Shown: positions 16,352 to 52,384, counted from the first letter of the stretch. The stretch: 64,000 nucleotides of DNA from Alphaproteobacteria bacterium (GCA_016869285.1 VGEN01000001.1:7201-71200), one strand, 5' to 3'. The notes: generated by a model not told the origin, from the sequence alone. Made by a program: numbers and translations.

Positions 16352-16358
16352 GCGACCG

Positions 16359-19582: not shown

Positions 19583-20159
19583 CCGCCTCTCGCCCTTCGG
19601 CCCCGAGGCACGGCCCGGCCGTCACGGTGCCGCCGGCGGTTCGCCGGTGTTGATGACCGAGCGCAGGGTCGACATCGTCCAGGTGATGGCGAGCCGCGAT
19701 GCCGAAGCGGCGGGGGGCGTCAGGGATGCGACCGGCCTCGCCCTTCCCGGCCCGCGCAAAGCCGAGATCGCCGGCGACGCGATGGCGGTCTGGATACAGC
19801 CTTCCGGCTGGCTGGTGATCCGCCCGCGCGGCGAGGAAGGCGCGCTGGCGAAGAAGCTCGGCGGCAACGAAGCGATGGCCGTGGTCGATCAAAGCCATGG
19901 CCGCTGCGTGCTGCGCCTGTCCGGCGCGCATGCCGGCGGGGTGCTCGCCAAGGGCAGCCGCGTCGACCTTCATCCCCGCGTCTTCCCGCCCGGCAGCGCC
20001 GCCACCACGAGCATCGACCACCTCACCGTCACGATCGTGAAGGTCGATGCAGTGCCCAGCTTCGATCTCATCCTGCCATCGAGTTTCGCCGAAGCCTTCC
20101 TCGACTGGCTCCGGACGTCGGCGACTGAGTTCGGCTACGAGATCAGACCGTCGACGTGA
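19548..20159 (+). CDS. soxG: sarcosine oxidase subunit gamma
   Basis: About 200 aa ORF overlapping soxA end; canonical position; exact start (19548 ATG or in-frame GTG 19569) uncertain. Confidence 0.75.
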   Translation: MSIRRTSVSAPDRLSPFGPEARPGRHGAAGGSPVLMTERRVDIVQVMASRDAEAAGGVRDATGLALPGPRKAEIAGDAMAVWIQPSGWLVIRPRGEEGALAKKLGGNEAMAVVDQSHGRCVLRLSGAHAGGVLAKGSRVDLHPRVFPPGSAATTSIDHLTVTIVKVDAVPSFDLILPSSFAEAFLDWLRTSATEFGYEIRPST

Positions 20160-21884: not shown

Positions 21885-23030
21885 ATGAAGACCCTGCTCC
21901 CGGTCCCGGAAATCGCTGTCGGCGCCGACCGGGTCGACAAGATCGGCGCCGATCTCGCCGCCCTCAAGGAAGCGCCAAAGCGCGTCCTCCTGGTGATCGA
22001 CCGCATGCTCTCGCACGGCGGCGTCGGCAAGCGCGTCCGCGAGGCATTGGCGACGACCCGTCACGAGACGGCGCTGTGGGACGGGCTTGCCGGCAAACCG
22101 ACTGGCGCCCAGATCGATACCGCCGCCGCCCTGGCGCGGACGCATACGGCAGAGGCCGTCATCGGGGTCGGCGGGGGCTCCGCGCTCGATGTCGCCAAGC
22201 TCGTGGCGGCGATCGCCGGCGCTACGGACAGTGTCGAGCGCTACGCCTTCTGCGCCAACCCGCTGCCGACAATACCGCTGCCTGTGATCTGCGTGCCGAC
22301 CACCGCCGGCACCGGCTCCGAGACCACCCACACCGCGGTCTTCGCCAATGCCGCCGGCAAGAAGGCCTGGGCCTGGGGGCCGGAGCTGGCGGCGCGCAAA
22401 GCCGTCCTCGATGCGAGCCTGACAACCTCGCTGCCTGCGCCTCTGACTGCCGCGACCGGCATCGATGCGTTGATTCATGCCGTCGAATCCTGCACCAATG
22501 CCAACCGCTTCGAAGCCAATGACGTGATCGCGCATGCCGCGATCCGGCTGATCGCGCGCCATCTGCCCGCAGCCGTCCGCGAGCCGCAGAACCTTGAGGC
22601 GCGTGAAGGCATGCTGGTCGCTTCCTGCTATGCCGGCATCGCCATCAACAACACCGGAACCGCGATCGCGCACAACATCGCGCATGCGCTCGGCAGCATC
22701 GGCAAGGTTCATCATGGACGGGCTGCCGGGCTCGGCCTTCGTGCTTCCCTGCCCTGGAGCCTGTCCGCCAGCGAACGCGCCTTTGCCGATGTCGCCGAGG
22801 CGATGGGAGGACCGCGTGACGCCGGCGCCCTGCCCGGCCTCGTCGATCGGCTCATCCGAGCCGTCGGCTTGAAGGTGGCGCTGGCCGACGAGCTGCCAGG
22901 CGTCACGCCCGAGCGCCTCGCCGCCGAAATGGCTCTGCCCGAGAACGAGGCGATGCGGAAGTCGTCGGCACGACCCTCAACCGAGCGCGACCTGCACGAT
23001 CTTGCGCGCGCCGTGCTGACAGCGAGCTGA
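21885..23030 (+). CDS. iron-containing alcohol dehydrogenase family protein
   Basis: GGGSALD glycine-rich NAD motif and His-rich metal site (HxxxH-type, AHNIAHALG); start at internal ATG MKTLLPV. Confidence 0.8.
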   Translation: MKTLLPVPEIAVGADRVDKIGADLAALKEAPKRVLLVIDRMLSHGGVGKRVREALATTRHETALWDGLAGKPTGAQIDTAAALARTHTAEAVIGVGGGSALDVAKLVAAIAGATDSVERYAFCANPLPTIPLPVICVPTTAGTGSETTHTAVFANAAGKKAWAWGPELAARKAVLDASLTTSLPAPLTAATGIDALIHAVESCTNANRFEANDVIAHAAIRLIARHLPAAVREPQNLEAREGMLVASCYAGIAINNTGTAIAHNIAHALGSIGKVHHGRAAGLGLRASLPWSLSASERAFADVAEAMGGPRDAGALPGLVDRLIRAVGLKVALADELPGVTPERLAAEMALPENEAMRKSSARPSTERDLHDLARAVLTAS

Positions 23031-23034
23031 AACA

Positions 23035-24165
23035 ATGAAGATCACCGCCATCGAGATCACCCAGCATCAGCTGCCGCTGGACCCGCCGTTCCACCCAAGC
23101 TGGTCGTCGCGCCCGCGGCTCAAATTCGATGCGACCCTGGTGCGCGTCCACACCGATGAAGGGATCACCGGGATCGGCTCGGGCGACTACATGCTGGGCT
23201 TCGCCGGTCACGAGCATCTGTTCATCGGCGAGGACCCACTTCGCCTCGAGCGCCATTGGCGCGTGATCGACCATATCGGCTTCCACTACGGCCGCTGCTG
23301 GCCGCTCGACCTCGCGCTCTGGGACATCGCCGGCAAGGCGGCGGGCCAGCCCTGCTGGAAGCTGCTCGGAGGCTACGCCAATAGGCTTCGGTGCTATGCC
23401 TCCTCCGGAACGCTCCGCAACGCCAAGGCGCTCGCCGACCTCGCCGAACGCGTGATCGTACGCGGCTTCAAGGCGATGAAGATCCGCTTCCGCCGCGGCT
23501 CCTGGCGCGACGACATCCGCGCGCTGGAGGCCGTGCGCGAGCGCATCGGCACCCGCCTCGAACTCATGGTCGACTGCAACCAGGGTTGGCGGTTTCCGTG
23601 GGACACGATGGCCGCCTGGACCCTCAAGGATGCGATCGCCGTCGGGCGCGAACTGGAAAGGCTGCACGTCTACTGGATGGAGGAGCCGCTGCACCGTGCC
23701 GACCGCCGTGGCATGCGCACGCTCAAGGACACGCTGGATGTCCGCATCGCCGGCGGCGAGCTCAACCGCGAGATGAGCGAGCTGCGCGACGTGATCCAGG
23801 AAGGCTGCCTCGACGTCGTGCAGCCCGACGTGGTTTCGATCGGCGGCATCACGGGCCTGGCCAAGGTCGCAGCGATGGCGAATGCCAACAACATCGTCTT
23901 CACGCCGCATACCTGGGGCAACGGCATCGGACTCATGGCCAACGCGCATGTCGTCGCCGGCACCACCGATCCAAGCTACCTCGAATTCCCCTGGGATCCG
24001 CCGGAATGGACCAATGAACGGCGCGACTACCTGCTAACCGAGCCGATCGACCTCGACGCCGAGGGCAATCTGATCCTCAGCGACAGGCCGGGCCTTGGGA
24101 TCGACCTCGACGAGGCGGTGCTGAAACGCACCCTGGTCGATGGCATCGTCAAGTCGAATAACTAG
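23035..24165 (+). CDS. enolase-superfamily enzyme (mandelate racemase/muconate lactonizing family; proline-betaine/hydroxyproline-betaine epimerase HpbD-like candidate)
   Basis: 376 aa; capping domain + barrel with metal-ligand Asp/Glu positions (MVDCNQGW, WMEEP, DVVQPD) and KxK-type general base region. Confidence 0.75.
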   Translation: MKITAIEITQHQLPLDPPFHPSWSSRPRLKFDATLVRVHTDEGITGIGSGDYMLGFAGHEHLFIGEDPLRLERHWRVIDHIGFHYGRCWPLDLALWDIAGKAAGQPCWKLLGGYANRLRCYASSGTLRNAKALADLAERVIVRGFKAMKIRFRRGSWRDDIRALEAVRERIGTRLELMVDCNQGWRFPWDTMAAWTLKDAIAVGRELERLHVYWMEEPLHRADRRGMRTLKDTLDVRIAGGELNREMSELRDVIQEGCLDVVQPDVVSIGGITGLAKVAAMANANNIVFTPHTWGNGIGLMANAHVVAGTTDPSYLEFPWDPPEWTNERRDYLLTEPIDLDAEGNLILSDRPGLGIDLDEAVLKRTLVDGIVKSNN

Positions 24166-26189
24166 TCGCGCCGTCGCCGCCGGCGTCCCTCGCCCGCCGC
24201 GGCGGCCTCCTTCCGCTCGGGCATCTTCACTGCTGCGGTCAGGTTCGGGAACGGCTCGACGCGGTTCGGGAAACCGATCGCATTGACGAAGTGCTCCTGG
24301 AAGCGCGGCTCGACCGCGGTTTCGATCTTCTCGATGCGCCGAACCAGGCCTTCGATCTCGCGGCGGTGGCCGCGATTGAGCAGCGCCATGCGGGCACCTG
24401 TGCCGGCGGCGTTGCCGACCGCTGAGACCTTGTCGAGGGCGCAATCCGGCACGAGGCCGATGATCATCGCGTGCTTCGGATCGATGTGGCTGCCGAAGGC
24501 CCCGGCGAGCTTGATGCGATCGACCTTGTCGATGCCGAGCTTGTCCATGAGCAGCCGCGAGCCGGCATAGAGCGCCGCCTTGGCGAGCTGGATGGCGCGG
24601 ATGTCATTTTGGGTGACCTTGATCTCGACGGGTTCCGTCCTCAGGACATAGGAGTAGGTCCGCCTGTCCGGCACAATCCGCGGCGTCCGCGCCGCAAGCG
24701 TACCGTCGATCATGCCGTCATGCGTCACGATGCCGGCGAGGAACATCTCCGCCACCGCCTCGATGATGCCTGAGCCGCAGATGCCGGTGACGCCGACCCT
24801 GTCGATGCCAATATCGAACCCCTCCTCGTTCGACCACGGGCCGACGTCGATGACCTTGATGCGCGGCTCAAGTGTCTCTGGATCGATGCGCACGCGCTCA
24901 ATCGCACCGGGCGCCGCGCGCTGACCTGAGGAGATCTGCGCGCCCTCGAAGGCCGGACCGGTCGGCGAGCTCGCGGCGAGCAGGCGGTCGGCGCTGCCGA
25001 GCACGATCTCCGCATTGGTGCCGACATCGATGACGAGCGTGATTTCCTGCCCCTTGTGCGGCGCCTCGGCCAGCGTCACCGCTGCCGCATCGGCGCCGAC
25101 GTGCCCCGCGATGCACGGAAGGACGTAGGCACGGCCAGACTTCAGGATCGGTAGGCCCAGGCCCTGCGCGCGGAGATCGAGCGCCTGCGAGACCGCGAGC
25201 GGAAACGGCGCCTGGCCCAGCGGTGTCGGATCGATACCGAGATAGAGGTGATGCATGATCGGATTGCCGACCAGCACCGCCTCGACGATCTCTTCCTGCG
25301 CGACTGCGCCCTGGCCGGCGACGCGGCCGATCAACGTGTTGACGGCATCGCGCACGACATCGGTCAGTGCGCCGCGACCCTCCGGATTCATCATCACATA
25401 GGAGACCCGCGACATCAGGTCTTCGCCGAAGCGGATCTGCGGGTTGGCCGTACCAGCGGACGCCACGGTACGCCCCGACATCAGATCGACGAGATGGCAG
25501 GCGATCGTGGTCGAGCCGATGTCGACGGCTACGCCGAAGAGGCGCTCGCGGTAGCCGGGCCAGACGCCGACGACCCGCGGCCTTCCGCCATCCTGGTGCA
25601 CGGCCACCGTCGCCTTGTAGCCGCCCTTGATCAGCGCCGGCTGCACGTCCGGCAGGATGGCGACATCGACGAGCACGTCGCGGATGCCCCATTTCTCGGA
25701 CAGGTGGCCGATCACGCGATCGAGATCGCCTTGCGGCTTCGCCATGTCGGGCGGGTCGATCTCGATATAGTGGAGATGCGTCGCGAGATCGCGCACGATT
25801 GCGCGGGTTTCGGCGCGTTTGCGCACGACCTGGGTGTTGACGGCGACATCGGCCGGTACGTCGATCACGACATCGCCCTCGATCTTCGCCGAACAGCTCA
25901 GGCGCCGGCCCGCCGGCAACGAACGGATATCGGCATAGCGCTGCTCGGTCTCCGACCGCCCGCTCAAGCTGTCGGCGCGAGAGGTGATGCCGTGCTTGGC
26001 AAAGACGCCTTCGGCGACCTCGATCTGGCAGCGCCCGCAAAGGCCGCGGCCGCCGCAGACGGACTCAATGTAGACGCCGAGCGAGCGCGCCGCATCGAGA
26101 ACGGACATGCCGATGGGGAAGCGGCCGCGGCGCCCGCTCGGCATGAAGATGACGAGCGCGTCGTCGGTCTTGGCGGGGGTGTCTGGCAC
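24162..26189 (-). CDS. ASKHA-domain corrinoid reductive activator (RACE/RamA-like) with N-terminal 2Fe-2S ferredoxin domain
   Basis: 675 aa; N-terminal plant-type ferredoxin cysteines (CGGRGLCGRCQ...C), followed by large ASKHA ATPase-like domain as in corrinoid activation enzymes. Confidence 0.8.
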   Translation of the reverse strand: MPDTPAKTDDALVIFMPSGRRGRFPIGMSVLDAARSLGVYIESVCGGRGLCGRCQIEVAEGVFAKHGITSRADSLSGRSETEQRYADIRSLPAGRRLSCSAKIEGDVVIDVPADVAVNTQVVRKRAETRAIVRDLATHLHYIEIDPPDMAKPQGDLDRVIGHLSEKWGIRDVLVDVAILPDVQPALIKGGYKATVAVHQDGGRPRVVGVWPGYRERLFGVAVDIGSTTIACHLVDLMSGRTVASAGTANPQIRFGEDLMSRVSYVMMNPEGRGALTDVVRDAVNTLIGRVAGQGAVAQEEIVEAVLVGNPIMHHLYLGIDPTPLGQAPFPLAVSQALDLRAQGLGLPILKSGRAYVLPCIAGHVGADAAAVTLAEAPHKGQEITLVIDVGTNAEIVLGSADRLLAASSPTGPAFEGAQISSGQRAAPGAIERVRIDPETLEPRIKVIDVGPWSNEEGFDIGIDRVGVTGICGSGIIEAVAEMFLAGIVTHDGMIDGTLAARTPRIVPDRRTYSYVLRTEPVEIKVTQNDIRAIQLAKAALYAGSRLLMDKLGIDKVDRIKLAGAFGSHIDPKHAMIIGLVPDCALDKVSAVGNAAGTGARMALLNRGHRREIEGLVRRIEKIETAVEPRFQEHFVNAIGFPNRVEPFPNLTAAVKMPERKEAAAAGEGRRRRRRD

Positions 26190-26193
26190 GGAG

Positions 26194-26493
26194 CTATCCT
26201 GTTCGCCCGTTTCCGGCGACCAGCGCCTTCAAGCGCTCGGCATCGTAGGTGGCTTCGAGGGAGGCGACCGCCGCATCGGCCTCGGCCTTGAGGTCGTCGC
26301 CGCAAGCCTCGGGATCGCCACGCCGCCACTCCGCGAGATAGGCATCGCTGTCGCGGGCCCCAACCTTCATCGCGCAGCGGTCGATCGCCTGGATGAAGCG
26401 CTCCGGCAGCTCGCGCTTTTCGGCCGTTCTCCCCTGGCGCACGATCACCTGTGCTGGTATGTCACGCCAATACACGATGATCCGCTGCGCCAT
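26194..26493 (-). CDS. small conserved protein of the family often annotated 'virulence factor', co-transcribed with RACE
   Basis: 99 aa, balanced composition, N-terminus IIVYWRDIPAQVIV; 4-bp gap to RACE start. Confidence 0.45.
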   Translation of the reverse strand: MAQRIIVYWRDIPAQVIVRQGRTAEKRELPERFIQAIDRCAMKVGARDSDAYLAEWRRGDPEACGDDLKAEADAAVASLEATYDAERLKALVAGNGRTG

Positions 26494-26523
26494 AGAGCCG
26501 AATTCCTAGGATACGAGGGCTGG

Positions 26524-27534
26524 ATGTCGAGTCGTCTCGAAGAGCTGCTGAAGGCACGGGGCCGCCTGCTCGCCGACGGCGCGACCGGAACCAACCTGTT
26601 CGAGATGGGCCTCTTGTCGGGGGACGCGCCCGAGCTCTGGAACGAGACGCAGCCGGAGAAGATCCGCGCGCTGCACCAGAGCTTCGTCGACGCCGGGGCC
26701 GACATCATCCTTACGAACACCTTCGGATGCAACAGGCGCCGCCTGATGCTTCACAAGGCGGAAGGCCGTACCCGCGAGCTGAACCGGCTGGGCGCCCAGA
26801 TCGCCCGCTCCGTCGCGGACAAGGCTGGACGGACGGTGATCGTCGCGGGCTCGGTCGGACCGACCGGCGATCTGCTGATCCCGCTCGGACCTTTGAGCGA
26901 GGAAGAGGCCGTCGACGTCTTCATCGAGCAGATCGAGGGGCTGAAGGCCGGCGGCGCCGACGTCGTCTGGATCGAGACCATGTCCGCGATCGAGGAGATG
27001 CGCGCCGCCGCGCAGGCCGCGATCAAGGTCGGCATGCCTTATACTGTGACCGCGACCTTCGACACGGCCGGGCGCACCATGATGGGTGCGACGCCGGAAG
27101 CGGTTGCTACCTTCCTCAGGGGCCTCGAACCGAAGCCGATCGCGATCGGAGCCAATTGCGGCGTCGGCGCACCCGACCTGATCTACTCGGTCATGCAGAT
27201 CACCGAGGCGGCACCGGACGCGGTGGTCATCGCCAAGGGAAATTGCGGCATCCCCAAATTCGTCGGCACCCAGGTCGAGTATACGGGCACTCCGGCGGTC
27301 ATGGCTGAGTATGCGCGGCTCGCGCTGGACACGGGCGCGCGTATCGTCGGCGGCTGCTGCGGAACCTCGCCCGGTCATCTCGCCGCCATGCGTCAGGCCC
27401 TCGATACGCACCGGCCAGGCGAGCGCCCCGACCTGGCAAAAGTGATCCAATGCATCGGCCCGCTAACCGCTCCGCCGGCCGACACCGCGGCCGAGCCCGT
27501 CAAACGCCGCGCCGGGCGACGCCGGAGCGGCTGA
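26524..27534 (+). CDS. homocysteine S-methyltransferase domain protein (MetH N-terminal-like / BHMT-like)
   Basis: 336 aa; zinc-binding Cys motifs GANCGVG and GGCCGTSP at canonical spacing of Hcy-binding (S-methyl_trans) domains; first gene of the corrinoid operon. Confidence 0.8.
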   Translation: MSSRLEELLKARGRLLADGATGTNLFEMGLLSGDAPELWNETQPEKIRALHQSFVDAGADIILTNTFGCNRRRLMLHKAEGRTRELNRLGAQIARSVADKAGRTVIVAGSVGPTGDLLIPLGPLSEEEAVDVFIEQIEGLKAGGADVVWIETMSAIEEMRAAAQAAIKVGMPYTVTATFDTAGRTMMGATPEAVATFLRGLEPKPIAIGANCGVGAPDLIYSVMQITEAAPDAVVIAKGNCGIPKFVGTQVEYTGTPAVMAEYARLALDTGARIVGGCCGTSPGHLAAMRQALDTHRPGERPDLAKVIQCIGPLTAPPADTAAEPVKRRAGRRRSG

Positions 27535-27655
27535 ACCGCCCCAGCGGCCGATGTCGCCCTCGGCCTCATGATGGTCGCAAATGCGGTGAATCGGCATCGG
27601 AACGCGACTAGGCTTGGCCCAAAGCCGACCCCGCTTCCGGGGCCGAAAGCGAGCG

Positions 27656-28906
27656 ATGGCCCAAGTCTTCAAGGACCCGCGGAAACGCGCCTTCCTCAAT
27701 CCCGACGGAGCCGACAAGCCGCTGAAAAGCCCGGTGCCGCCGGCGACGCTCAAGGCCGCTCGCGCCTATCGCCTCAGCCGTATCCGAGACCAGCTCAAGC
27801 GTCACGACTGCGCCGCCATCCTACTCTACGACCCCGTCAACATCCGCTACGCGCTCGACGTCTCCAACATGCAACTCTGGATGACGCACAACCCGTCGCA
27901 CTACGCGGTGATCTGCGCCGAAGGGCCGGCGATCGACTTCGAGTACAAGGGTTCCGAGCACGTCGCTAAAGGCATTGAGACCATCGATGAGATCCGTCCG
28001 GCGATCTCGTGGTTCTACTTCTCTGCCGGCAACAACCTCGCCCGGCGCTGCGACAAATGGGCGGACGAGATCGCAGACATCGTCCGCCAGCATGGCGGCG
28101 GCAACAAGCGCCTTGCTGTCGACAAGCTGGAGCCGCTTGGCGTCGATGCGCTCCGCAATCGCGGCATCACGCTCGTCGAGGGCCAAGAGCTGACGGAGCA
28201 CGCCCGCTGCATCAAGAGCCCGGCCGAGCTCGAGCTGATGAGCTGGACCGTGCGTGTCTGCGAAGCGGCGATGGCGCGCATGTACGAGCGCTCCGAGCCC
28301 GGGCGCACCGAGCAGGAGATCTGGGCCGAGATGCATTTCGAGAATATCCGCTCCGGCGGCGAGTGGATCGAGACGCGGTTGCTCGCCGCCGGCCCACGGA
28401 CCAACCCCTGGTTCCAGGAGTGCTCTGACTATATCTGCGAGGAGGGTGACATCCTCGCCTTCGACACGGACCTGATCGGCCCCTACGGCTATTGCGCCGA
28501 TCTCTCGCGCTCCTGGACCATCGGCCACACGCGCATGAGCAACGAGCAGCGGACGCTCTATGCCGCCGCGGTCGAGCAGATCGACCACAACCTCTCGATC
28601 CTCAAGGCCGGCATGAGCTTCCGCGAGTTCAACGAGAGATCCTGGAAGATCCCTGCGAAGTACATGGAGCGCCGCTACTCGGTCGCCTTGCACGGCGTCG
28701 GCCTGGCCGACGAGTGGCCATCGGTGCCGCTCCACCCCGACTTCGCCCGTGCCTATGACGGGCGGTTCGCGGAGAACATGGTGGTCTGCGTCGAGAGCCT
28801 GATCGGCGAAGAGGGCGGACGCGAGTGCATCAAGCTCGAAACCCAGGCCGTGATCGGCGCCAACGGCGCCAGGCGGCTTGACAGCTTCCCTTGGGAAGAG
28901 GTCTAG
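27656..28906 (+). CDS. M24 family metallopeptidase-fold hydrolase (creatinase/Xaa-Pro aminopeptidase-like)
   Basis: About 415 aa; pita-bread fold metal ligands (D..D..H..E..E pattern: FDTDLIGPYGYCAD, HGVG, CVES); start 27656 preferred over 27614. Confidence 0.7.
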   Translation: MAQVFKDPRKRAFLNPDGADKPLKSPVPPATLKAARAYRLSRIRDQLKRHDCAAILLYDPVNIRYALDVSNMQLWMTHNPSHYAVICAEGPAIDFEYKGSEHVAKGIETIDEIRPAISWFYFSAGNNLARRCDKWADEIADIVRQHGGGNKRLAVDKLEPLGVDALRNRGITLVEGQELTEHARCIKSPAELELMSWTVRVCEAAMARMYERSEPGRTEQEIWAEMHFENIRSGGEWIETRLLAAGPRTNPWFQECSDYICEEGDILAFDTDLIGPYGYCADLSRSWTIGHTRMSNEQRTLYAAAVEQIDHNLSILKAGMSFREFNERSWKIPAKYMERRYSVALHGVGLADEWPSVPLHPDFARAYDGRFAENMVVCVESLIGEEGGRECIKLETQAVIGANGARRLDSFPWEEV

Positions 28907-28944
28907 AGATCAGCGGCTTACACGAATGCTGGGGATTTAAGGTC

Positions 28945-29646
28945 ATGGCCGACGGCGACGACATCGTCCTGGAAGAGCTCAATGACAGCGAGCTCGTCAA
29001 GCAGATGCATGACGACCTCTATGACGGTCTCAAGGACGAGATCGAGGAGGCCGTCCACATCTTGCTGAGGCGCAAGTGGGAGCCGTACCGGATTCTCACC
29101 GAGGCGTTGGTCGAAGGCATGCGCATCGTCGGCATCGACTTCCGCGACGGCATCCTGTTCGTGCCGGAAGTGCTGATGTCGGCCAATGCGATGAAGGCCG
29201 GCATGGCGATCCTGAAGCCGCTGCTGGCCGAGACCGGGGCGCCGCGCGTCGGCAAGATGGTGATCGGCACCGTCAAGGGTGACATCCACGACATCGGCAA
29301 GAATCTCGTCACCATGATGATGGAAGGCGCCGGCTTCGAGGTGATCGACCTAGGCATCAACAACGCGGTCGAGAAGTACCTGGACGCCATCGCCGAGCAT
29401 CAGCCGGACATCCTCGGTATGTCGGCGCTGCTGACCACGACCATGCCCTACATGAAGGTCGTCATCGACGCCCTCAAGGAGAAAGGCATCCGCGATGACA
29501 TCGTCGTGCTCGTCGGCGGAGCGCCGTTGAATGAGGACTTCGCCAAGGCGATAGGCGCCGACAGCTATTGCCGGGACGCCGCCGTCGCGGTCGAGACCGC
29601 CAAGCAGTACATGATGCGCAAGCACAACCAGCGCGCTGCCGGCTGA
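28945..29646 (+). CDS. cobalamin-binding corrinoid protein (MtbC/MtgC-like)
   Basis: 233 aa; B12-binding DxHxxG motif GDIHDIGKN followed by Rossmann-like B12 domain, N-terminal helical cap. Confidence 0.85.
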   Translation: MADGDDIVLEELNDSELVKQMHDDLYDGLKDEIEEAVHILLRRKWEPYRILTEALVEGMRIVGIDFRDGILFVPEVLMSANAMKAGMAILKPLLAETGAPRVGKMVIGTVKGDIHDIGKNLVTMMMEGAGFEVIDLGINNAVEKYLDAIAEHQPDILGMSALLTTTMPYMKVVIDALKEKGIRDDIVVLVGGAPLNEDFAKAIGADSYCRDAAVAVETAKQYMMRKHNQRAAG

Positions 29647-30299
29647 TGCCAGAGGACGCCACCACGCGAGCGACGCGGCGTCAGCTCATCCTTGCCTGCG
29701 GCGCGCTCGCGCGCGAGGTCAATGCCGTGATCGCCGCCAACCATCTGCACCATGTGACCGTGCAGTGCCTGCCGGCTGGGCTGCACAACCGGCCGAAAGA
29801 GATCCCGGCGGCGGTCAGGGCTGCTGTCGCTGAGCATCGCGACGAGTACGACGACATCCTGGTCGGTTATGCCGATTGCGGCACCGGGGGGGAGCTCGAC
29901 AGGGTGCTCGACGAGCTCAGGCTGCACCGCCTGCCGGGCGCGCATTGCTACGCCTTCTTCTCCGGCGTGGCCGAGTTCGGCCGCCGCGCCGACGAGGACA
30001 TGCGCGCCTTCTTTCTGACCGACTTCCTGGTCCGGCAGTTCGAGACGCTGGTGATCGAGGGGCTCGGCCTCGACCGTCACCCCGAGCTTCGGGATGCCTA
30101 TTTCGGCCACTACGAGAAAGTCGTCTATCTGGCGCAGACCGACGACCCGCGCCTGAAGCGCGAGGCGGAGGCCGCGGCGAAGCGGCTTGGCCTCGGCTAC
30201 GAGCACCGTCTTGTCGGCCTTGGCGAGCTTGTGCCGGCGATCGTCGAATTCGCCGAAGAGCCGCTCAGACCGAGAGAAAAGAGGATGAGCGAACGATGA
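29646..30299 (+). CDS. DUF1638 domain protein
   Basis: 217 aa; TGATG overlap with corrinoid protein stop and ATGA overlap with downstream MttB; family recurrently found in MttB/corrinoid loci. Confidence 0.65.
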   Translation: MPEDATTRATRRQLILACGALAREVNAVIAANHLHHVTVQCLPAGLHNRPKEIPAAVRAAVAEHRDEYDDILVGYADCGTGGELDRVLDELRLHRLPGAHCYAFFSGVAEFGRRADEDMRAFFLTDFLVRQFETLVIEGLGLDRHPELRDAYFGHYEKVVYLAQTDDPRLKREAEAAAKRLGLGYEHRLVGLGELVPAIVEFAEEPLRPREKRMSER

Positions 30300-31852
30300 C
30301 CGCTGAACGCAGCGTCGAACGCGGGGCCGGCGATCGTCGGGCACGTCGCAAGGCCGAAGCGAGCTCAGGCGTACTGCAGCCGCCTTGGGCGCCGATCCGC
30401 AACCCGATGCCGCCGCTCGAGCTGCTCGACGAAGACGGCGTGCGGCGCATCGACGACACGGCGTTGCGCGTGCTCGAGGAGCTTGGCATCGAGTTCCTCA
30501 ACGACGAGGCGCTAGACGTCTTCGAGAAGGCCGGCTGCAAGGTCGACCGCTCGACCAAGCTGGTGCGCTTTGACCGCGGCATGCTCAGGGAGACGATCGC
30601 CAAGGCGCCGCGTCAATTCCGCCTGTTCGCGCGCAATCCCGAGCGCAACCTCGTGATCGGCGACAACACCATCAATGTCGGCCCGGTCGGCAGCCCGCCG
30701 AACGTCTCTGACCTCGACCGCGGCCGCCGCCCCGGCAGCTATGAGGACGTCGTCAAACTGATCAAGCTCAACCAGATGCTGACCTGCGTTCATCACTCCG
30801 GCGGCACGCTGACCGAAGCGCTGGACCTGCCCGCTGACTCGCGCCACCTCGACCTCTACCGCGCACACACCTTCCTTGCCGACCGCTGCTTCATCGGCCG
30901 CGGCATCGGGCGCGAAAGGATCACAGACGCGATCGAGATCGTCTGCCTCGCCCGCGGCATCGGCCGCGAGCAGCTGATGGCGGAGCCGACGCTGACCACG
31001 GTGATCAACGTCAACTCGCCGCGCCGCGTCGACAAGGAGATGATTGCGGGATTGATGGCGATGACCGCTCATGGCCAGCCTTGCATCGTCACTCCCTTCA
31101 CGCTCGCCGGCGCCATGAGCCCGGTGACCATCGCCGGCGCGCTGGCGCAGCAGACCGCCGAGGCGCTGTCGGTGATCGCGCTGATCCAGATCTTGCGGCC
31201 GGGCACGCCGGTGATCTTCGGCGGCTTCACCTCCAATGTCGACATGAAGTCCGGCGCGCCGGCCTTCGGCACGCCGGAATATGTGCGCTCGACCATCATC
31301 GGCGGCCAGATCGCGCGGCGCTGGGGCCTGCCCTATCGGTCGAGCAACGTGAACGCGTCCAACTGCGTCGATGCGCAGTCGACGCATGAATCGCTGATGT
31401 CGATCTGGGCCTGCGTCATGTCGCACGTACATTTCATGCATCACGGCACCGGCTGGCTCGAAGGCGGCCTCGTCGCCTCCTACGAAAAGGTCATCGTCGA
31501 CGCCGAGGCGCTGCACGCGATGGCCGCGTGGCTGAAGCCGATGGACCTTTCCGACGACGCGCTCGCCTTCGAGGCGCTCAAGGAAGTGCCTCCCGGCGGG
31601 CATTTCTTCGGCGCAACCCACACCATGGCCCGATACGAGCACGCCTTCCATCAACACCTGATCGCCGACTGGCGAAACTTCCAGTCCTGGCAGGAAGCCG
31701 GCGCCCTCAACGCGACGCAACGCGCCAACGCTGTGTGGAAGAAGCTGCTCGAAAGCTATGTCGAGCCGCCGCTCGATCCCGGCAAGAAGGAGGCAATCGA
31801 CGCCTTCGTCGCCAGGCGCAAGACCGAGATCATGCAGCGCGGGATCGTTTGA
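30296..31852 (+). CDS. MttB superfamily (non-pyrrolysine) methyltransferase, paralog 2
   Basis: 518 aa; same conserved blocks as paralog 1 (...MTPFTLAGAMxPVTxAGALAQQ..., ...GGFTSNVDMKSGAPAFGTPEY...); no amber codon. Confidence 0.85.
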   Translation: MTAERSVERGAGDRRARRKAEASSGVLQPPWAPIRNPMPPLELLDEDGVRRIDDTALRVLEELGIEFLNDEALDVFEKAGCKVDRSTKLVRFDRGMLRETIAKAPRQFRLFARNPERNLVIGDNTINVGPVGSPPNVSDLDRGRRPGSYEDVVKLIKLNQMLTCVHHSGGTLTEALDLPADSRHLDLYRAHTFLADRCFIGRGIGRERITDAIEIVCLARGIGREQLMAEPTLTTVINVNSPRRVDKEMIAGLMAMTAHGQPCIVTPFTLAGAMSPVTIAGALAQQTAEALSVIALIQILRPGTPVIFGGFTSNVDMKSGAPAFGTPEYVRSTIIGGQIARRWGLPYRSSNVNASNCVDAQSTHESLMSIWACVMSHVHFMHHGTGWLEGGLVASYEKVIVDAEALHAMAAWLKPMDLSDDALAFEALKEVPPGGHFFGATHTMARYEHAFHQHLIADWRNFQSWQEAGALNATQRANAVWKKLLESYVEPPLDPGKKEAIDAFVARRKTEIMQRGIV

Positions 31853-32014: not shown

Positions 32015-34441
32015 CTAGGCGCGCATCCGCGCGCCAGCCGGGTCGTAGGGCGGCTCCTTGAGAATTCGCGCCGGGCGGCGGTCGCCGATGATCTCGATCT
32101 CGAAACCGCCGAGCGCGGAGACGAGATCCTTCGGCACGTAGCCAAGCGCAAGAGACTTTGCCACGGTGTGGCCGTATCCACCCGAGGTGACCCAGCCGAC
32201 GACCTTGCCGGCGTGCCAGATCGGCTCATCGCCGAAGGCGTCGCCGTCGCGGGCGTCGACCTCGAACAGGACCAGGCGCCGCTCGCCGCCCGACTTGCGC
32301 TCGGCCTCCGCCGCAGCACGGCCGACGAAGTCCTTCTTCTCCAGGCGCACGAAGCGTCGCATGCCCGCCTCCTCCGGCCCGTAGATCGGCCGGTACTCGC
32401 GCGCCCAGGTCCCGTAGCACTTCTCCAGGCGCAGCGACAGCAGCGCGTGGGTGCCGAACTGCATGAGGCCGAGGTCGCGGCCGGCATCGAGGAGCGTCCG
32501 GTAGAGCAGCCGCTGATGGTCGGGCGCGCACCAGAGCTCATAGCCGAGCTCGCCGGTGAAGCTGATGCGCGAGACGATGCAGGGGACCATGCCGACCGAC
32601 ATCTCGCGGATCGACAGGAACGGGAAGGCGTTCGACGACAGCTCCTCGCGCACGAGGCGTCCGAGCAGGTCGCGCGCCTTCGGGCCGGCAATGGCCAAGC
32701 CGGACAGCGCGGCAGTCATCGGCCGGATCGCCACCTGGAGGCTTCCGCGCTGCCGCTCGAACCAGCGGAGATGATAGGCCTCGGCCGGGCCGGAACCGAT
32801 GATGAAGAAGCGGTCCTTGGCGAGCCGGCCGACGGTGAAGTCGCCGATCAGCTTGCCCTGCTCGTTCAGCATCGGCGCCAGCACGATGCGGCCCTCCTCC
32901 AGCATGCGGTTGGCGAGGATGCGCTCGAGGAAGGCCGCGGCATCCGGCCCGCTCACCTCGTAGCGTCCATAGGCCGAGGTCTCGATCAGGCCGACGCCGC
33001 TCCGCACCGCCTTGCACTCGGCGGCGACGACCGGAAAGGCATTCGATCGGCGGTAGGTGACCGTTTCCTCGGCCGGCGTGCCCTTGGGCGCGAACCAAAG
33101 CGGATATTCGAGGCCGTAGGAGGCTCCGAACACCGCATTCTCCGCCGCGAGCTCACCATGGATCGGCACGGTCCGCAGCGCCCGCGCCGCCGGCAGCTCC
33201 TCGTTGGGGAAGCGGATGCGGAAGCGGCGCGAGTAGTTCTCGCGCACCTTGGCGTTGGTATAGGCCATGGTCGCCCAGTCGCCGTAGCGCGAGACGTCCA
33301 TGCCCCAGACATCGAAGCCCGGGTCGCCCTGGATCATCCAGTTGGAGAGCGCCAGGCCGACGCCACCGCCTTGGCTGAATCCCGCCATGACGCCGCAGGC
33401 GACCCAGTAGTTCTTCAGGCCCCGCACCGGCCCGACAAGCGGATTGCCGTCGGGCGTGAAGGTGAAGGGACCGTTGACCACGCGTTTGATGCCGGCACGC
33501 CCGATCGCGGGAAAGTGGCGGAAGCCGGTATCGAGGCTGGCGGAGATGCGATCGAGGTTCTCCTGCAGCAGCTCAGGCCCGAAATCCCAGGAAGTCGTAT
33601 CCGGCATCCACGGCACGCCTTCGCGCTCGTAGCTGCCAAGCAGAATCCCTTTCCCTTCCTGGCGAAGATAGAGCTCGCCTTCGAAGTCGATGACATGGAC
33701 CAGCTCCTTGCCGGTCCAGGCCTCGATCTCGGCGACCTCCGCTGAGTCCTCGGTGACGATGTAGTGGTGCTCCATCGCCAGCACCGGCAGCTCCAGGCCG
33801 ACCATGCGGCCGACCTCGCGCGCCCAGAGACCGCCGGCGTTGACCACATGCTCGGCTGTGATCGTGCCCTTGTCGGTGACGACGTCCCAGCTTCCCTCAG
33901 GCCGCAGGTTCAGCTCGATCACGCGGGTCTGGCGGTAGATCTCGGCGCCGAAGATCCGGGCTGCCTTGGCATAGGCATGCGTCGTGCCCGAGGGATCGAG
34001 ATGCCCTTCGAGCGGGTCGTACATGGCGCCGATGAAGTATCTCTCATCGATCAGCGGCAGCCGGCGCTTGGCCTCGGCCGCATCGATGATCTCGGTGTCC
34101 ATGCCGAGATAGCGGCCCTTGGCATGCGCAAGCTTCAGGAAGTCCATGCGCTCGGGCGTGCCGGCCAGCATCATGCCGCCGGTGATGTGCAACCCGCAGG
34201 ACTGGCCTGAGATCTCTTCGATCTCCTTGTATAGCTGCACCGTGTAGCTCTGCAGCTTGGCAACGTTGGGGTCGCCGTTGAGCGTGTGGAAGCCGCCGGC
34301 GGCGTGCCAGCTCGAGCCCGAGGTCAGCTCCAGGCGCTCGATCAGGCAGATGTCCTTCCAGCCGGCCTTGGCCAGATGGAAGAGCACACTGCAGCCGACA
34401 ACGCCGCCGCCGATCACGGCGACGCGGACATGAGACTTCAT
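32015..34441 (-). CDS. dimethylglycine dehydrogenase / sarcosine dehydrogenase family protein (FAD oxidoreductase fused to GcvT-like folate-binding domain), paralog 1
   Basis: 808 aa; N-terminal VAVIGGGVVGCSVLFHLA FAD fold; C-terminal aminomethyltransferase-like domain. Confidence 0.85.
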   Translation of the reverse strand: MKSHVRVAVIGGGVVGCSVLFHLAKAGWKDICLIERLELTSGSSWHAAGGFHTLNGDPNVAKLQSYTVQLYKEIEEISGQSCGLHITGGMMLAGTPERMDFLKLAHAKGRYLGMDTEIIDAAEAKRRLPLIDERYFIGAMYDPLEGHLDPSGTTHAYAKAARIFGAEIYRQTRVIELNLRPEGSWDVVTDKGTITAEHVVNAGGLWAREVGRMVGLELPVLAMEHHYIVTEDSAEVAEIEAWTGKELVHVIDFEGELYLRQEGKGILLGSYEREGVPWMPDTTSWDFGPELLQENLDRISASLDTGFRHFPAIGRAGIKRVVNGPFTFTPDGNPLVGPVRGLKNYWVACGVMAGFSQGGGVGLALSNWMIQGDPGFDVWGMDVSRYGDWATMAYTNAKVRENYSRRFRIRFPNEELPAARALRTVPIHGELAAENAVFGASYGLEYPLWFAPKGTPAEETVTYRRSNAFPVVAAECKAVRSGVGLIETSAYGRYEVSGPDAAAFLERILANRMLEEGRIVLAPMLNEQGKLIGDFTVGRLAKDRFFIIGSGPAEAYHLRWFERQRGSLQVAIRPMTAALSGLAIAGPKARDLLGRLVREELSSNAFPFLSIREMSVGMVPCIVSRISFTGELGYELWCAPDHQRLLYRTLLDAGRDLGLMQFGTHALLSLRLEKCYGTWAREYRPIYGPEEAGMRRFVRLEKKDFVGRAAAEAERKSGGERRLVLFEVDARDGDAFGDEPIWHAGKVVGWVTSGGYGHTVAKSLALGYVPKDLVSALGGFEIEIIGDRRPARILKEPPYDPAGARMRA

Positions 34442-34463
34442 CGCCTACCCCCCCCGAAACCCT

Positions 34464-42283: not shown

Positions 42284-42285
42284 TG

Positions 42286-52374: not shown

Positions 52375-52384
52375 GGATTTGCTT

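What the first reader, a model, noticed from the sequence alone, without database searches (positions are those of the whole stretch)
24162..31852. Corrinoid-dependent quaternary-amine methyltransferase module whose in-operon acceptor is a homocysteine methyltransferase domain
Seen directly: a plus-strand operon of five tightly coupled genes (TGATG/ATGA overlaps between the last three).
- A standalone homocysteine S-methyltransferase domain with the two zinc-Cys motifs GANCGVG and GGCCGTSP.
- An M24-fold hydrolase.
- A B12-binding corrinoid protein (DxHxxG = GDIHDIGKN).
- DUF1638.
- A non-Pyl MttB-family methyltransferase.
Divergently, 30 bp away, lies a small conserved protein plus a 2Fe-2S/ASKHA RACE-type reactivase.

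Established knowledge: non-Pyl MttB members (MtgB, MtpB, MtcB, MtyB) methylate a cognate corrinoid protein from glycine betaine, proline betaine, carnitine or gamma-butyrobetaine. RamA-like ASKHA proteins reduce inactive Co(II) corrinoids. In the described anaerobic systems the methyl acceptor enzyme is a pterin-binding MtgA-type protein that makes methyl-THF.

Inference: here the acceptor encoded in the operon is a homocysteine-binding domain. This predicts a split, MetH-like route transferring a betaine methyl group via Co(I)/CH3-Co(III) directly to homocysteine, i.e. betaine-driven, methyl-THF-independent methionine synthesis. It occurs in a genome that otherwise encodes O2-dependent demethylation (Sox, DMGDH, Rieske). 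Such a three-component betaine:homocysteine system is, to my knowledge, not biochemically described.

The M24 hydrolase embedded between the Hcy-MT gene and the corrinoid gene is an additional unexplained component.
Basis: partly seen in the sequence, partly recalled or inferred. Interest (0 to 1): 0.85.

Follow-up and report, generated by a model that had tools for sequence, protein, structure and literature searches.

The report
Split B12 methionine synthase/betaine demethylase cluster
This is a real gene cluster for a vitamin-B12-dependent system that strips methyl groups from betaine-type compounds and shares its B12 carrier protein with a split methionine synthase; the system was already described in 2018 and 2025, so this is a new example with an unusual gene order and an unknown substrate, not a new kind of pathway.

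Summary
Gene order is conserved in more than ten independent contigs.

- **Already published.** A stand-alone homocysteine methyltransferase working with a separate corrinoid protein, a RamA-like activase and DUF1638 is the split methionine synthase of Phaeobacter inhibens (2018). Its sharing of the corrinoid protein with MttB-family demethylases is the MtgBCDE system of Ruegeria pomeroyi and Sinorhizobium meliloti (2025).
- **A folate branch exists.** The window also encodes the pterin-binding partner (MtgD) and a MetF2-like reductase 14 kb downstream, so the system is not folate-independent by design.
- **Hcy-MT identity.** It resembles MetH homocysteine domains far more than human BHMT.
- **Substrate unknown.** The in-operon MttB belongs to a clade distinct from the corrinoid-adjacent, putative glycine-betaine clade. 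It keeps the carboxylate-binding Arg and His but lacks both aromatic residues that hold glycine betaine.
- **The M24 gene.** It is a DddP-family protein with an intact active site. Its orthologues recur beside MttB, DMGDH-like, cupin "DMSP-lyase" and GFA genes, so it belongs to methyl-compound catabolism.

Verdict: a new member of a known kind, of modest interest. The open points are the substrate and the role of the DddP-like enzyme.

The parts
24162..26189 (-). RamA/RACo-type ATP-dependent reductive activase of the corrinoid protein (N-terminal 2Fe-2S ferredoxin domain plus ASKHA domain)
   Evidence: Pfam Fer2, RACo_linker, Raco_middle and RACo_C_ter. NCBIfam AcsV-like at 375 bits, below its cut-off. 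Cys45/51/54/99. Function inferred from PMC5764234.
26194..26493 (-). Small PF13769 ('Virulence_fact') protein of unknown role that travels with the corrinoid core genes
   Evidence: Pfam E = 1e-28. Among 72 species loci: with MtgC in 20, MtgC alone in 9, PF13769 alone in 3. No paper in the searchable library names PF13769. Single-sequence AlphaFold model was unusable, pLDDT 54.
26524..27534 (+). MtgE-type stand-alone homocysteine S-methyltransferase, the homocysteine module of a split MetH (annotated 'betaine--homocysteine S-methyltransferase' by NCBIfam)
   Evidence: PF02574, E = 1e-65. NF005718 at 505 bits, cut-off 338. PDB: MetH domains 143 bits, human BHMT 71, MmuM 54. Zinc Cys motifs aligned to Thermotoga MetH.
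27549..27655 (+). Conserved non-coding stretch upstream of the M24 gene; candidate regulatory element of unknown type
   Evidence: 83-98% identical across loci whose third codon positions are only 67-75% identical. No compensatory pair changes. No Rfam match. Found only at this position in the window-type clade.
27656..28906 (+). DddP-family M24 metalloenzyme (pita-bread fold plus creatinase-type N-domain); substrate unknown
   Evidence: Pfam. NF043017 DddP at 415 bits, cut-off 600. 338 bits to the RdDddP structure 4b28. All six metal ligands plus Tyr366 and Asp377 conserved, read from the alignment against the residue list in PMC4108388.
28945..29646 (+). MtgC-type corrinoid (cobalamin) carrier protein
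   Evidence: B12-binding_2 + B12-binding. DIHDIG at residue 113. 79-84% identical to the corrinoid genes of Hyphomicrobiales Mtg clusters. Below cut-off for all anaerobe-type corrinoid protein models.
29646..30299 (+). DUF1638 protein, genetically required with the RamA-like protein in the split MetH of P. inhibens; mechanism unknown
   Evidence: PF07796, E = 3e-29. TGATG junction with the corrinoid gene and ATGA overlap with MttB. PMC5764234.
30296..31852 (+). MttB_a: non-pyrrolysine MttB-superfamily substrate:corrinoid methyltransferase; substrate not assigned
   Evidence: PF06253, E = 2e-193. No in-frame stop. 41% identical to 4YYC and 36% to D. hafniense MtgB. Separate clade III. Arg312 and His348 kept; Tyr97 and Phe356 replaced by Gly.
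20231..21805 (-). MttB_b: second non-pyrrolysine MttB paralogue, 52% identical to MttB_a
   Evidence: Pfam. 67-69% identical orthologues sit next to DMGDH-like genes in Mesorhizobium, Pseudaminobacter and Tianweitania.
21885..24165 (+). Fe-dependent alcohol dehydrogenase (21885-23030) and enolase-superfamily enzyme (23035-24165), divergent from MttB_b and conserved with the M24/MttB_a unit
   Evidence: Conserved order in L007, L009, L091 and L098.
45554..47382 (-). MetF2-like MTHFR (46489-47382) followed by the MtgD-type pterin-binding methyl-corrinoid:THF methyltransferase (45554-46513)
   Evidence: Pterin_bind and MTHFR. NF005719 at 380 bits, cut-off 259. ORFs. 71-76% and 45-47% identical to the genes in Hyphomicrobiales Mtg clusters.
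41289..45509 (-). Same minus-strand gene string, continued: DMGDH-like oxidase 2 (43098-45509), PhnD-type binding protein (42286-43101), PF16867 'DMSP_lyase' cupin (41681-42283), GFA (41289-41684). The last three junctions overlap by 4 bp.
   Evidence: In other genomes the same string ends in the M24 orthologue (L093, L104, L120, L139).
32015..41343 (.). DMGDH-like oxidase 1 (32015-34441, -), 2OG-Fe(II) oxygenase (34464-35516, -) and a Dpp/Opp-type ABC transporter (35688-41343, +), conserved next to MttB_a
   Evidence: Conserved in L007, L009, L091 and L098.
14966..20159 (+). Heterotetrameric sarcosine oxidase soxBDAG
   Evidence: gene calls.

Best explanation
The region is an MtgBCDE-type system: a split, cobalamin-dependent methionine synthase whose corrinoid carrier is shared with substrate-specific MttB-family demethylases. 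It sits inside a ~33-kb island for the catabolism of methylated onium compounds.

**Proposed mechanism**
1. A carboxylate-bearing quaternary amine, or possibly a sulfonium, is taken up.
2. MttB_a (and separately MttB_b) transfers one methyl group to Co(I) on the corrinoid protein MtgC.
3. CH3-Co(III)-MtgC is discharged by one of two acceptor modules.
   - The pterin-binding MtgD gives methyl-THF. The MetF2-like enzyme oxidises it, feeding C1 oxidation or assimilation.
   - The homocysteine module MtgE gives methionine.
4. Run in reverse, MtgD plus MtgC plus MtgE also acts as the housekeeping methionine synthase from methyl-THF.
5. The RACo/RamA-like protein, together with DUF1638 and perhaps the PF13769 protein, re-reduces Co(II) to Co(I).
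6. DMGDH-like oxidases and sarcosine oxidase remove the remaining N-methyl groups.
7. The DddP-family M24 enzyme acts on the carbon skeleton of the substrate or of a demethylated product, by metal-assisted elimination or hydrolysis.

**Shown here:** gene content, motifs, clade placement and conserved synteny.

**Taken from the literature:** the roles of MtgC, MtgD, MtgE, RamA and DUF1638.

**Inferred:** the substrate class, the role of M24, and any direct MttB -> MtgC -> MtgE flux.
For: - **Family assignments:**
- **Hcy-MT is MetH-like, not BHMT-like:** 143 vs 71 bits, with zinc motifs aligned.
- **Synteny of the Hcy-MT gene:** of 45 species-level loci outside the close clade with at least 8 kb on both sides, 23 carry MtgC + DUF1638 + an MttB within 10 kb of the Hcy-MT gene. 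18 carry PF13769, 9 the pterin gene and 7 RACo. Acidimicrobiia are included.
- **The folate branch is in the window:** MtgD and a MetF2-like gene.
- **MttB clades and binding-site residues:**, using the residue list of PMC13080624.
- **M24 active site intact:** with PMC4108388.
- **M24 orthologues (>=70% identity) in loci of at least 5 kb:** 19 of 22 lie beside MttB, MtgC, DMGDH-like, cupin or GFA genes.
- **The seven-gene module recurs in an unrelated genomic context:** in L092 the Hcy-MT and M24 genes overlap by 4 bp.
- **Literature:** PMC5764234 (split MetH genetics), PMC12478193 (MtgBCDE; the S. meliloti 'Bmt' reinterpreted as MtgE), bioRxiv 10.64898/2025.12.19.695462 (mtgB1 and mtgC mutants).
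Against: - No biochemistry or expression data exist for this organism.
- In the model organisms mtgE is down-regulated when methyl donors are present and is seen as competing with MtgB for MtgC/MtgD. That argues against, or at least does not predict, co-expression of MtgE with an MttB as implied here.
- The 121-bp conserved spacer may separate mtgE from the downstream four genes transcriptionally.
- Orthology to the R. pomeroyi and P. inhibens proteins was inferred through Hyphomicrobiales synteny, not by direct comparison.
- Purified P. inhibens Bmt makes methionine from betaine or DMSP without cobalamin (PMC12366255).
- Neither window MttB carries the Tyr97 equivalent, so glycine betaine may not be a substrate at all.
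Confidence: 0.7

Rival explanations
1. The homocysteine methyltransferase works alone as a cobalamin-independent onium:homocysteine methyltransferase (Bmt/BHMT-like). It takes a methyl group directly from glycine betaine, DMSP or a related compound. Its position next to the corrinoid genes reflects shared regulation, not methyl transfer from the corrinoid.
For: - NCBIfam equivalog 'betaine--homocysteine S-methyltransferase' is matched above its cut-off (505 vs 338 bits).
- Purified P. inhibens Bmt formed methionine from DMSP or betaine without THF or cobalamin (PMC12366255).
- Its immediate neighbour is a DddP-family protein, and the two genes overlap by 4 bp in L092. That would fit a sulfonium theme.
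Against: - It is much closer to MetH homocysteine domains than to human BHMT or MmuM.
- Mausz et al. report that the S. meliloti-type protein lacks the betaine-binding residues of human BHMT, and that the bmt mutant still catabolises betaine when given methionine (PMC12478193).
- P. inhibens mutants in the corrinoid, pterin, RamA-like and DUF1638 genes are methionine auxotrophs like the homocysteine-module mutant (PMC5764234).
- Synteny with MtgC and DUF1638 holds in about half of species loci.
- The two roles are not mutually exclusive.
Confidence: 0.15
2. The homocysteine module, corrinoid protein, MtgD, RACo and DUF1638 are simply the organism's housekeeping split methionine synthase using methyl-THF. 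The MttB enzymes feed only the THF branch. The homocysteine gene sits here because the shared corrinoid gene does, so there is no meaningful direct substrate-to-methionine route.
For: - In R. pomeroyi and P. inhibens, MtgE abundance or transcripts fall on glycine betaine while MtgB, MtgC and MtgD rise (PMC12478193; bioRxiv 10.64898/2025.12.19.695462).
- A conserved 105-nt element separates mtgE from M24-mtgC-DUF1638-mttB, which is compatible with separate control.
- In 40 of 72 species loci the homocysteine gene stands without the corrinoid gene or the PF13769 gene within reach.
Against: - Once MtgC is methylated by an MttB, nothing known prevents MtgE from using it.
- From my own recollection of Barra et al. 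2006 (cited in PMC12478193; the paper itself was not read), glycine betaine can support methionine supply through bmt in S. meliloti.
- The Hcy-MT/M24 overlap in L092 indicates co-translation with the catabolic genes in at least one lineage.
Confidence: 0.3
3. The M24 gene and MttB_a act on a sulfonium compound of the DMSP type rather than on a quaternary amine. The cluster would then be a corrinoid-dependent DMSP-like demethylation/cleavage pathway.
For: - The M24 protein keeps every DddP metal ligand and both proposed catalytic residues (PMC4108388).
- A PF16867 'DMSP_lyase' cupin lies in the mtgD gene string of the window. In other genomes it sits directly upstream of M24 orthologues.
- The P. 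inhibens Bmt accepts DMSP in vitro (PMC12366255).
Against: - The M24 protein is below the DddP equivalog cut-off (415 vs 600 bits).
- DMSP cleavage by DddP and by cupins such as DddQ has been argued to be promiscuous, with unknown native substrates (bioRxiv 10.1101/168930).
- From my recollection of the JGI project behind the sample ids, the source is a freshwater lake metagenome; no tool output states the habitat.
- All characterised non-Pyl MttB enzymes use quaternary amines.
- The surrounding DMGDH-like and sarcosine oxidase genes are N-demethylases.
Confidence: 0.12

Closest known systems
MtgBCDE of Ruegeria pomeroyi DSS-3 and Sinorhizobium meliloti (Mausz et al. 2025, PMC12478193), built on the split methionine synthase of Phaeobacter inhibens (Price et al. 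2018, PMC5764234)
   Same: The parts list is identical.
- A stand-alone homocysteine module (MtgE, the S. meliloti 'Bmt').
- A corrinoid protein (MtgC).
- A pterin-binding methyltransferase (MtgD) next to a MetF paralogue.
- A RamA-like activase and DUF1638.
- Several non-Pyl MttB paralogues.
- An aerobic alphaproteobacterial background with DMGDH and Sox genes nearby.
   Different: - mtgE lies directly upstream of, and co-oriented with, mtgC-DUF1638-mttB, with a DddP-family M24 gene inserted between them. In the marine models mtgE is unlinked and regulated oppositely to mtgB.
- The linked MttB proteins form clades separate from the MtgC-adjacent clade of Hyphomicrobiales and lack the Tyr97 equivalent.
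- MtgD and MetF2 lie 14 kb away in another gene string.
- No function has been tested in this organism.
MtgB/MtgC/MtgA glycine betaine:THF methyltransferase system of Desulfitobacterium hafniense, and the related MtpB, MtcB, MtyB and MthB systems of Eubacterium limosum
   Same: An MttB-superfamily methyltransferase methylates a separate corrinoid protein. A RamA-type activase is present. A pterin-binding methyltransferase makes methyl-THF.
   Different: - Only 36% identity to D. hafniense MtgB.
- The corrinoid protein scores below the cut-off of every anaerobe-type model.
- An additional homocysteine acceptor module and DUF1638 are present.
- The host context is aerobic.
Cobalamin-dependent methionine synthase MetH
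   Same: The homocysteine, pterin and B12-cap/B12-binding modules are homologous to MetH modules. The chemistry is Co(I)/CH3-Co(III) cycling.
   Different: The modules are separate polypeptides. There is no SAM-dependent reactivation domain; reactivation is instead by an ATP-dependent RACo/RamA-like protein plus DUF1638. The corrinoid carrier is also open to MttB donors.
Betaine-homocysteine S-methyltransferase (human BHMT; SAR11-type Bhmt)
   Same: Same Pfam family (PF02574) and zinc Cys triad. NCBIfam names the protein BHMT. Methionine is the product.
   Different: It scores 71 bits to human BHMT against 143 bits to MetH domains. The S. meliloti-type proteins are reported to lack the betaine-binding residues (PMC12478193; not re-tested here).
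DddP DMSP lyase (Roseobacter denitrificans 4B28, Ruegeria lacuscaerulensis 4RZY)
   Same: M24 pita-bread fold with an N-terminal domain. About half the residues are identical by eye in the alignment. All six metal ligands plus Tyr366 and Asp377 are conserved.
   Different: It is below the DddP equivalog cut-off. The gene context is different: corrinoid, MttB, DMGDH-like, cupin and GFA genes, instead of the context reported for dddP in 10.1101/168930. The activity is unknown.

Membership tests
MtgBCDE / split MetH system | Stand-alone homocysteine-binding S-methyltransferase with a zinc Cys triad | tested here: met
   PF02574, E = 1e-65. Cys motifs at residues 209 and 276 aligned to Thermotoga MetH.
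MtgBCDE / split MetH system | Stand-alone corrinoid protein with B12 cap plus B12-binding domain and DxHxxG | tested here: met
   DIHDIG at residue 113. 79-84% identical to corrinoid genes in Hyphomicrobiales Mtg clusters.
MtgBCDE / split MetH system | Stand-alone pterin-binding methyltransferase (MtgD) with an adjacent MetF paralogue | tested here: met
   45554-46513 and 46489-47382. They are present in the window but not in the operon of the finding.
MtgBCDE / split MetH system | RamA-like (ferredoxin + DUF4445/RACo) activase and DUF1638 | tested here: met
MtgBCDE / split MetH system | One or more non-pyrrolysine MttB (PF06253) methyltransferases | tested here: met
   Two paralogues, neither with an in-frame stop.
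MtgBCDE / split MetH system | Direct orthology to the characterised R. pomeroyi and P. inhibens proteins | not tested
Orthology was inferred only through synteny with Rhizobiaceae and Phyllobacteriaceae loci that match the published S. meliloti description.
MtgBCDE / split MetH system | Loss of mtgC or mtgD gives methionine auxotrophy and loss of betaine demethylation | not testable with these tools
   Needs genetics in a cultured relative.
Glycine-betaine-specific MtgB (D. hafniense type) | Binding-site residues Tyr97 and Phe356 (cation-pi) and Arg312 and His348 (carboxylate), from PMC13080624 | tested here: not met
   Arg and His are conserved. Tyr97 is Gly in MttB_a and Ala/Gly in the MttB_b clade. 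Phe356 is Gly in all alphaproteobacterial clades. The two proteins are therefore filed as MttB-superfamily, substrate unassigned.
Pyrrolysine-dependent trimethylamine methyltransferase MttB | In-frame UAG (pyrrolysine) codon and the TIGR02369 equivalog score | tested here: not met
   No in-frame stop. 274 and 313 bits against a cut-off of 525.
Direct betaine-homocysteine S-methyltransferase (EC 2.1.1.5) | NCBIfam equivalog NF005718 above its cut-off | tested here: met
   505 bits against 338.
Direct betaine-homocysteine S-methyltransferase (EC 2.1.1.5) | Closer to structurally characterised BHMT than to MetH homocysteine domains | tested here: not met
   71 bits (1LT7) against 143 bits (1Q7M).
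Direct betaine-homocysteine S-methyltransferase (EC 2.1.1.5) | Betaine-binding residues of human BHMT | not tested
   The human sequence could not be aligned with the tools at hand. Mausz et al. report that these residues are absent from S. meliloti-type proteins.
DddP DMSP lyase | Binuclear metal ligands Asp295, Asp297, Asp307, His371, Glu406 and Glu421, plus Tyr366 and Asp377 | tested here: met
   All are conserved in the alignment to 4B28, read against PMC4108388.
DddP DMSP lyase | NCBIfam equivalog NF043017 score of at least 600 | tested here: not met
   415 bits.
DddP DMSP lyase | DMS release from DMSP | not testable with these tools
   Needs an enzyme assay.

The most novel reading that the evidence does not exclude
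In this lineage and in L092, the co-oriented string mtgE-M24-mtgC-DUF1638-mttB_a is a dedicated pathway for a still unidentified, bulkier carboxylated onium compound (a betaine or a DMSP-type sulfonium). Methyl groups would go straight from MttB_a through the corrinoid protein to homocysteine without a folate intermediate. The DddP-family M24 enzyme would carry out its native reaction on the demethylated skeleton, not a promiscuous one. That would give DddP-like proteins a physiological role and add a new substrate class to the MttB superfamily.
Probability: 0.2. Interest if true: 0.65.

Novelty: new member of a known kind. Interest (0 to 1): 0.35.

Why it matters
- **Habitat and lineage.** The source contig comes from a JGI metagenome that I recall as a freshwater lake project (sample ids; the habitat is not stated in any tool output). 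It would extend the recently described MtgBCDE system beyond the marine roseobacters and rhizobia in which it was studied, to uncultured Alphaproteobacteria.
- **A testable arrangement.** The homocysteine module is physically joined to an MttB demethylase here. That makes this lineage the natural place to test whether methyl groups can pass from an onium compound to methionine without folate, a step that the published model leaves open.
- **New substrate leads.** Two MttB clades have an enlarged quaternary-amine pocket, and a DddP-family enzyme plus a 'DMSP-lyase' cupin recur in corrinoid and DMGDH clusters. Both are concrete leads to new substrates. They also bear on the native function of DddP-like proteins, which has been questioned.
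- **An unreported companion.** The small PF13769 protein travels with the corrinoid core and appears not to have been reported as such.

Tried and rejected
- **Rfam.** A whole-window scan at gathering thresholds gave no hit, so no cobalamin or SAM riboswitch was found. A permissive scan of the 27500-27700 spacer gave only chance-level hits.
- **Promoters and terminators.** The sigma-70 and terminator scan of 24000-32200 found nothing above the shuffle expectation.
- **Conserved spacer.** RNAalifold found no compensatory changes, so no structure can be claimed. Motif and nhmmer searches found no second copy in the window or in 156 loci outside the close clade.
- **PF13769 structure.** A single-sequence AlphaFold model had pLDDT 54 and was not used; no fold search was run.
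- **Literature.** A search for the gene combination MttB + mandelate racemase + DMGDH + aminopeptidase + sarcosine oxidase found no paper. A search for 'PF13769' found none.
- **Enolase-superfamily protein.** The best PDB matches are acid-sugar dehydratase-like proteins at about 137 bits, and no hit carries a proline-betaine epimerase name. The idea that it is an HpbD-type hydroxyproline betaine epimerase was therefore not supported, though not excluded.
- **M24 as an accidental insertion.** I first read M24 as belonging only to an enolase-M24-MttB unit into which the corrinoid genes had been inserted. I revised this after L092 showed the seven-gene module alone with a Hcy-MT/M24 overlap.
- **Human BHMT residues.** The betaine-binding residues could not be checked, because BHMT ranks eighth in the PDB hit list and only five alignments can be shown.

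Full report
**1. Observation**

The window has high G+C, about 66%. I therefore defined genes by codon-position G+C and by family searches. All seven genes of the finding are real.

| Gene | Coordinates | Key evidence |
|---|---|---|
| RACo-type activase | 24162-26189 (-) | 2Fe-2S domain plus RACo domains |
| PF13769 protein | 26194-26493 (-) | Virulence_fact family |
| Homocysteine S-methyltransferase | 26524-27534 (+) | PF02574 |
| M24 / Creatinase_N protein | 27656-28906 (+) | Peptidase_M24 |
| Corrinoid protein | 28945-29646 (+) | DIHDIG motif |
| DUF1638 | 29646-30299 (+) | PF07796 |
| MttB-family protein | 30296-31852 (+) | PF06253, E = 2e-193, no in-frame stop |

These rest. Gene calls on the identical public metagenome contig (JGI 3300020198) give the same protein lengths.

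The TGATG and ATGA junctions and the 30-bp divergent gap are as described. One correction is needed. The homocysteine gene is separated from M24 by 121 bp, so 'five tightly coupled genes' overstates the case.

**2. The wider window**

Upstream lie:
- soxBDAG at 14966-20159;
- a second MttB paralogue, MttB_b, at 20231-21805 (-), 52% identical to the first;
- an Fe-dependent alcohol dehydrogenase and an enolase-superfamily gene at 21885-24165.

Downstream lie:
- a DMGDH-like oxidase and a 2OG-Fe(II) oxygenase;
- a Dpp/Opp-type ABC transporter;
- a tightly packed minus-strand string (47382 down to 41289): MTHFR-like gene, pterin-binding methyltransferase, second DMGDH-like oxidase, PhnD-type binding protein, PF16867 'DMSP_lyase' cupin, GFA.

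The pterin-binding protein scores 380 bits on NF005719 against a cut-off of 259.

**3. What is already known**

A literature search shows that the system has been described.
- Price et al. 2018 (PMC5764234) showed by fitness genetics that P. inhibens makes methionine with a MetH split into homocysteine, corrinoid and pterin proteins. A RamA-like protein and DUF1638 are also required.
- Mausz et al. 2025 (PMC12478193) showed in R. pomeroyi that the corrinoid protein MtgC and the pterin protein MtgD are needed both for methionine synthesis and for glycine betaine demethylation. MttB-family MtgB proteins are induced on betaine. They named the homocysteine module MtgE and reinterpreted the S. meliloti 'Bmt/BHMT' as MtgE. 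They noted that in S. meliloti MtgBCDE and the reactivation genes are co-located.
- A 2025 preprint (10.64898/2025.12.19.695462) adds mtgB1 and mtgC mutants in P. inhibens. It also reports that mtgE transcripts fall when methyl donors are present.
- Narvaez-Barragan et al. 2025 (PMC12366255) found that purified P. inhibens Bmt makes methionine directly from DMSP or betaine without cobalamin. The direct-transfer rival therefore has experimental support in vitro.

**4. Tests on the homocysteine module**
- Against solved structures it matches MetH homocysteine domains best (1Q7M, 143 bits). Human BHMT scores 71 bits and MmuM 54 bits.
- Its Cys motifs align with the zinc ligands of Thermotoga MetH.
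- NCBIfam nevertheless names it betaine--homocysteine S-methyltransferase (505 bits, cut-off 338).
- A scan of one genome per species returned 80 loci, which I annotated by tblastn with the window proteins. Of the 45 loci outside the close clade with at least 8 kb on both sides, 23 have MtgC + DUF1638 + an MttB within 10 kb. PF13769 is present in 18, the pterin gene in 9 and RACo in 7.
- The same gene set occurs in Acidimicrobiia MAGs (L068, L082, L085, L088).

Linkage of this homocysteine gene to a corrinoid system is therefore common, as published.

**5. The MttB proteins**

An NJ tree of 56 MttB sequences from these loci plus two PDB sequences gives three alphaproteobacterial clades.
- Clade I sits beside MtgC in Hyphomicrobiales and Acidimicrobiia. 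It includes PDB 4YYC, which groups with Rhizobiaceae sequences.
- Clade II is MttB_b.
- Clade III is MttB_a.

I used the experimentally defined glycine betaine site of D. hafniense MtgB: Tyr97 and Phe356 for the cation, Arg312 and His348 for the carboxylate (PMC13080624). Arg and His are invariant in all three clades. Tyr97 is kept only in clade I; it is Gly in MttB_a and Ala or Gly in the MttB_b clade. Phe356 is Gly in all three.

My inference is that both window enzymes bind a carboxylate-bearing onium compound in a more open pocket than glycine betaine needs. Their substrates cannot be assigned.

**6. The M24 protein**

It scores 338 bits against the R. denitrificans DddP structure (4B28). 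All six metal ligands and the two proposed catalytic residues (Tyr366, Asp377; PMC4108388) are conserved in that alignment. It stays below the DddP equivalog cut-off, however (415 vs 600 bits).

Its orthologues are abundant: more than 120 clusters at 73% identity or above. Their contexts fall into recurrent types.
- **Window type:** RACo-PF13769 divergent from HcyMT-M24-MtgC-DUF1638-MttB_a. It is found in the close clade. It also occurs in L092 in an unrelated neighbourhood, where the Hcy-MT and M24 genes overlap by 4 bp.
- **Enolase-M24-MttB_a** with no corrinoid genes between them (L009, L091, L098).
- **DMGDH-like - binding protein - PF16867 cupin - GFA - M24** (L093, L104, L120, L139). In L093 this string converges on an HcyMT-MtgC-DUF1638-MttB_a operon.
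- **RACo-PF13769-DUF1638-MtgC** divergent from DMGDH-like - GFA - M24 (L103, L106, L142, L156).

Of 22 loci of at least 5 kb with an M24 at 70% identity or above, 19 carry at least one of MttB, MtgC, DMGDH-like, cupin or GFA.

The M24 gene is therefore a regular member of corrinoid- and flavin-dependent methyl-compound catabolism, not an accident of this operon. Lei et al. (10.1101/168930) argued that DMSP cleavage by DddP is promiscuous and that its native function is unknown. The contexts found here point to that native function, but they do not identify it.

**7. Mechanism proposed**

The steps are set out in the best explanation. What is shown here is gene content, motifs, clades and synteny. 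The roles of MtgC, MtgD, MtgE, RamA and DUF1638 are borrowed from genetics in other species. The substrate class, the role of M24 and the direct MttB -> MtgC -> MtgE route are inferred.

The direct route is chemically natural, because MtgC is shared. None of the papers I read demonstrates it, and opposite regulation of mtgE and mtgB in the model organisms argues that it may be minor there. The physical joining of mtgE to an mttB operon in this lineage is the main difference from the published systems.

**8. A conserved spacer**

The last ~105 nt before the M24 start codon (27549-27655) are 83-98% identical among loci whose M24 third codon positions are only 67-75% identical. There are no compensatory changes and no Rfam match. 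No other copy was found. It may be a leader or an operator that gives M24-mtgC-DUF1638-mttB its own control, separate from mtgE.

**9. Verdict**

This is a new member of a known kind with an unusual gene order. The worthwhile open questions are the substrates of MttB_a and MttB_b, the reaction of the DddP-family enzyme and the neighbouring cupin, the role of PF13769, and whether methyl groups reach methionine without folate. Interest is 0.35.

Noticed in passing
window 27549-27655 (+): The ~105 nt before the M24 start codon are conserved at 83-98% across loci whose synonymous sites are only 67-75% identical. There is no Rfam match, no covariation and no other copy. It may be a leader or operator separating mtgE from M24-mtgC-DUF1638-mttB.
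   Followed up: partly
window 26194-26493 (-); loci L019-L090: The 99-aa PF13769 'Virulence_fact' protein co-occurs with the corrinoid gene: both present in 20 loci, corrinoid only in 9, PF13769 only in 3, neither in 40. It sits next to RACo, the homocysteine gene, DUF1638 or the MTHFR-like gene. It is not mentioned in the Mtg papers, and no paper in the library names the family.
   Followed up: partly
window 41289-47382 (-): A tightly packed gene string: MTHFR-like, pterin-binding MtgD, DMGDH-like, PhnD-type binding protein, PF16867 'DMSP_lyase' cupin, GFA. It puts a second 'DMSP lyase' family protein in the same island as the DddP-like M24. In other genomes the same string ends with the M24 orthologue.
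   Followed up: partly
window 20231-24165: A second MttB paralogue (52% identical to the first) is divergent from an Fe-dependent alcohol dehydrogenase and an enolase-superfamily enzyme of unassigned function. The arrangement is conserved in relatives. Orthologues of this MttB in Mesorhizobium, Pseudaminobacter and Tianweitania sit next to a DMGDH-like gene upstream of the homocysteine gene.
   Followed up: partly
window 26494-26523: Only 30 bp separate the divergent start codons of the PF13769 gene and the homocysteine methyltransferase gene (30-40 bp in relatives). Promoters must therefore lie inside the neighbouring coding regions. No sigma-70-like site was found.
   Followed up: no
L068, L082, L085, L088: Acidimicrobiia (Actinomycetota) MAGs carry MtgC-DUF1638-pterin-RACo-MttB-(MTHFR)-HcyMT in one string. 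Their homocysteine proteins are 59-63% identical to the window protein, which suggests transfer of the whole system between phyla.
   Followed up: no
window 50383-57607: Further oxygenases and unrelated genes lie downstream: an S9 prolyl oligopeptidase-family protein, a PhyH dioxygenase, a Rieske/ring-hydroxylating alpha subunit (53296-54678), an aldo-keto reductase and an adenylate/guanylate cyclase.
   Followed up: no
L094 (GCA_050181295.1): In a Parvibaculaceae MAG the M24 orthologue follows a DMGDH-like gene and an MFS transporter. A TauD/gamma-butyrobetaine-hydroxylase-like gene and a distant MttB lie within 7 kb, a hint toward carnitine- or butyrobetaine-like substrates.
   Followed up: no
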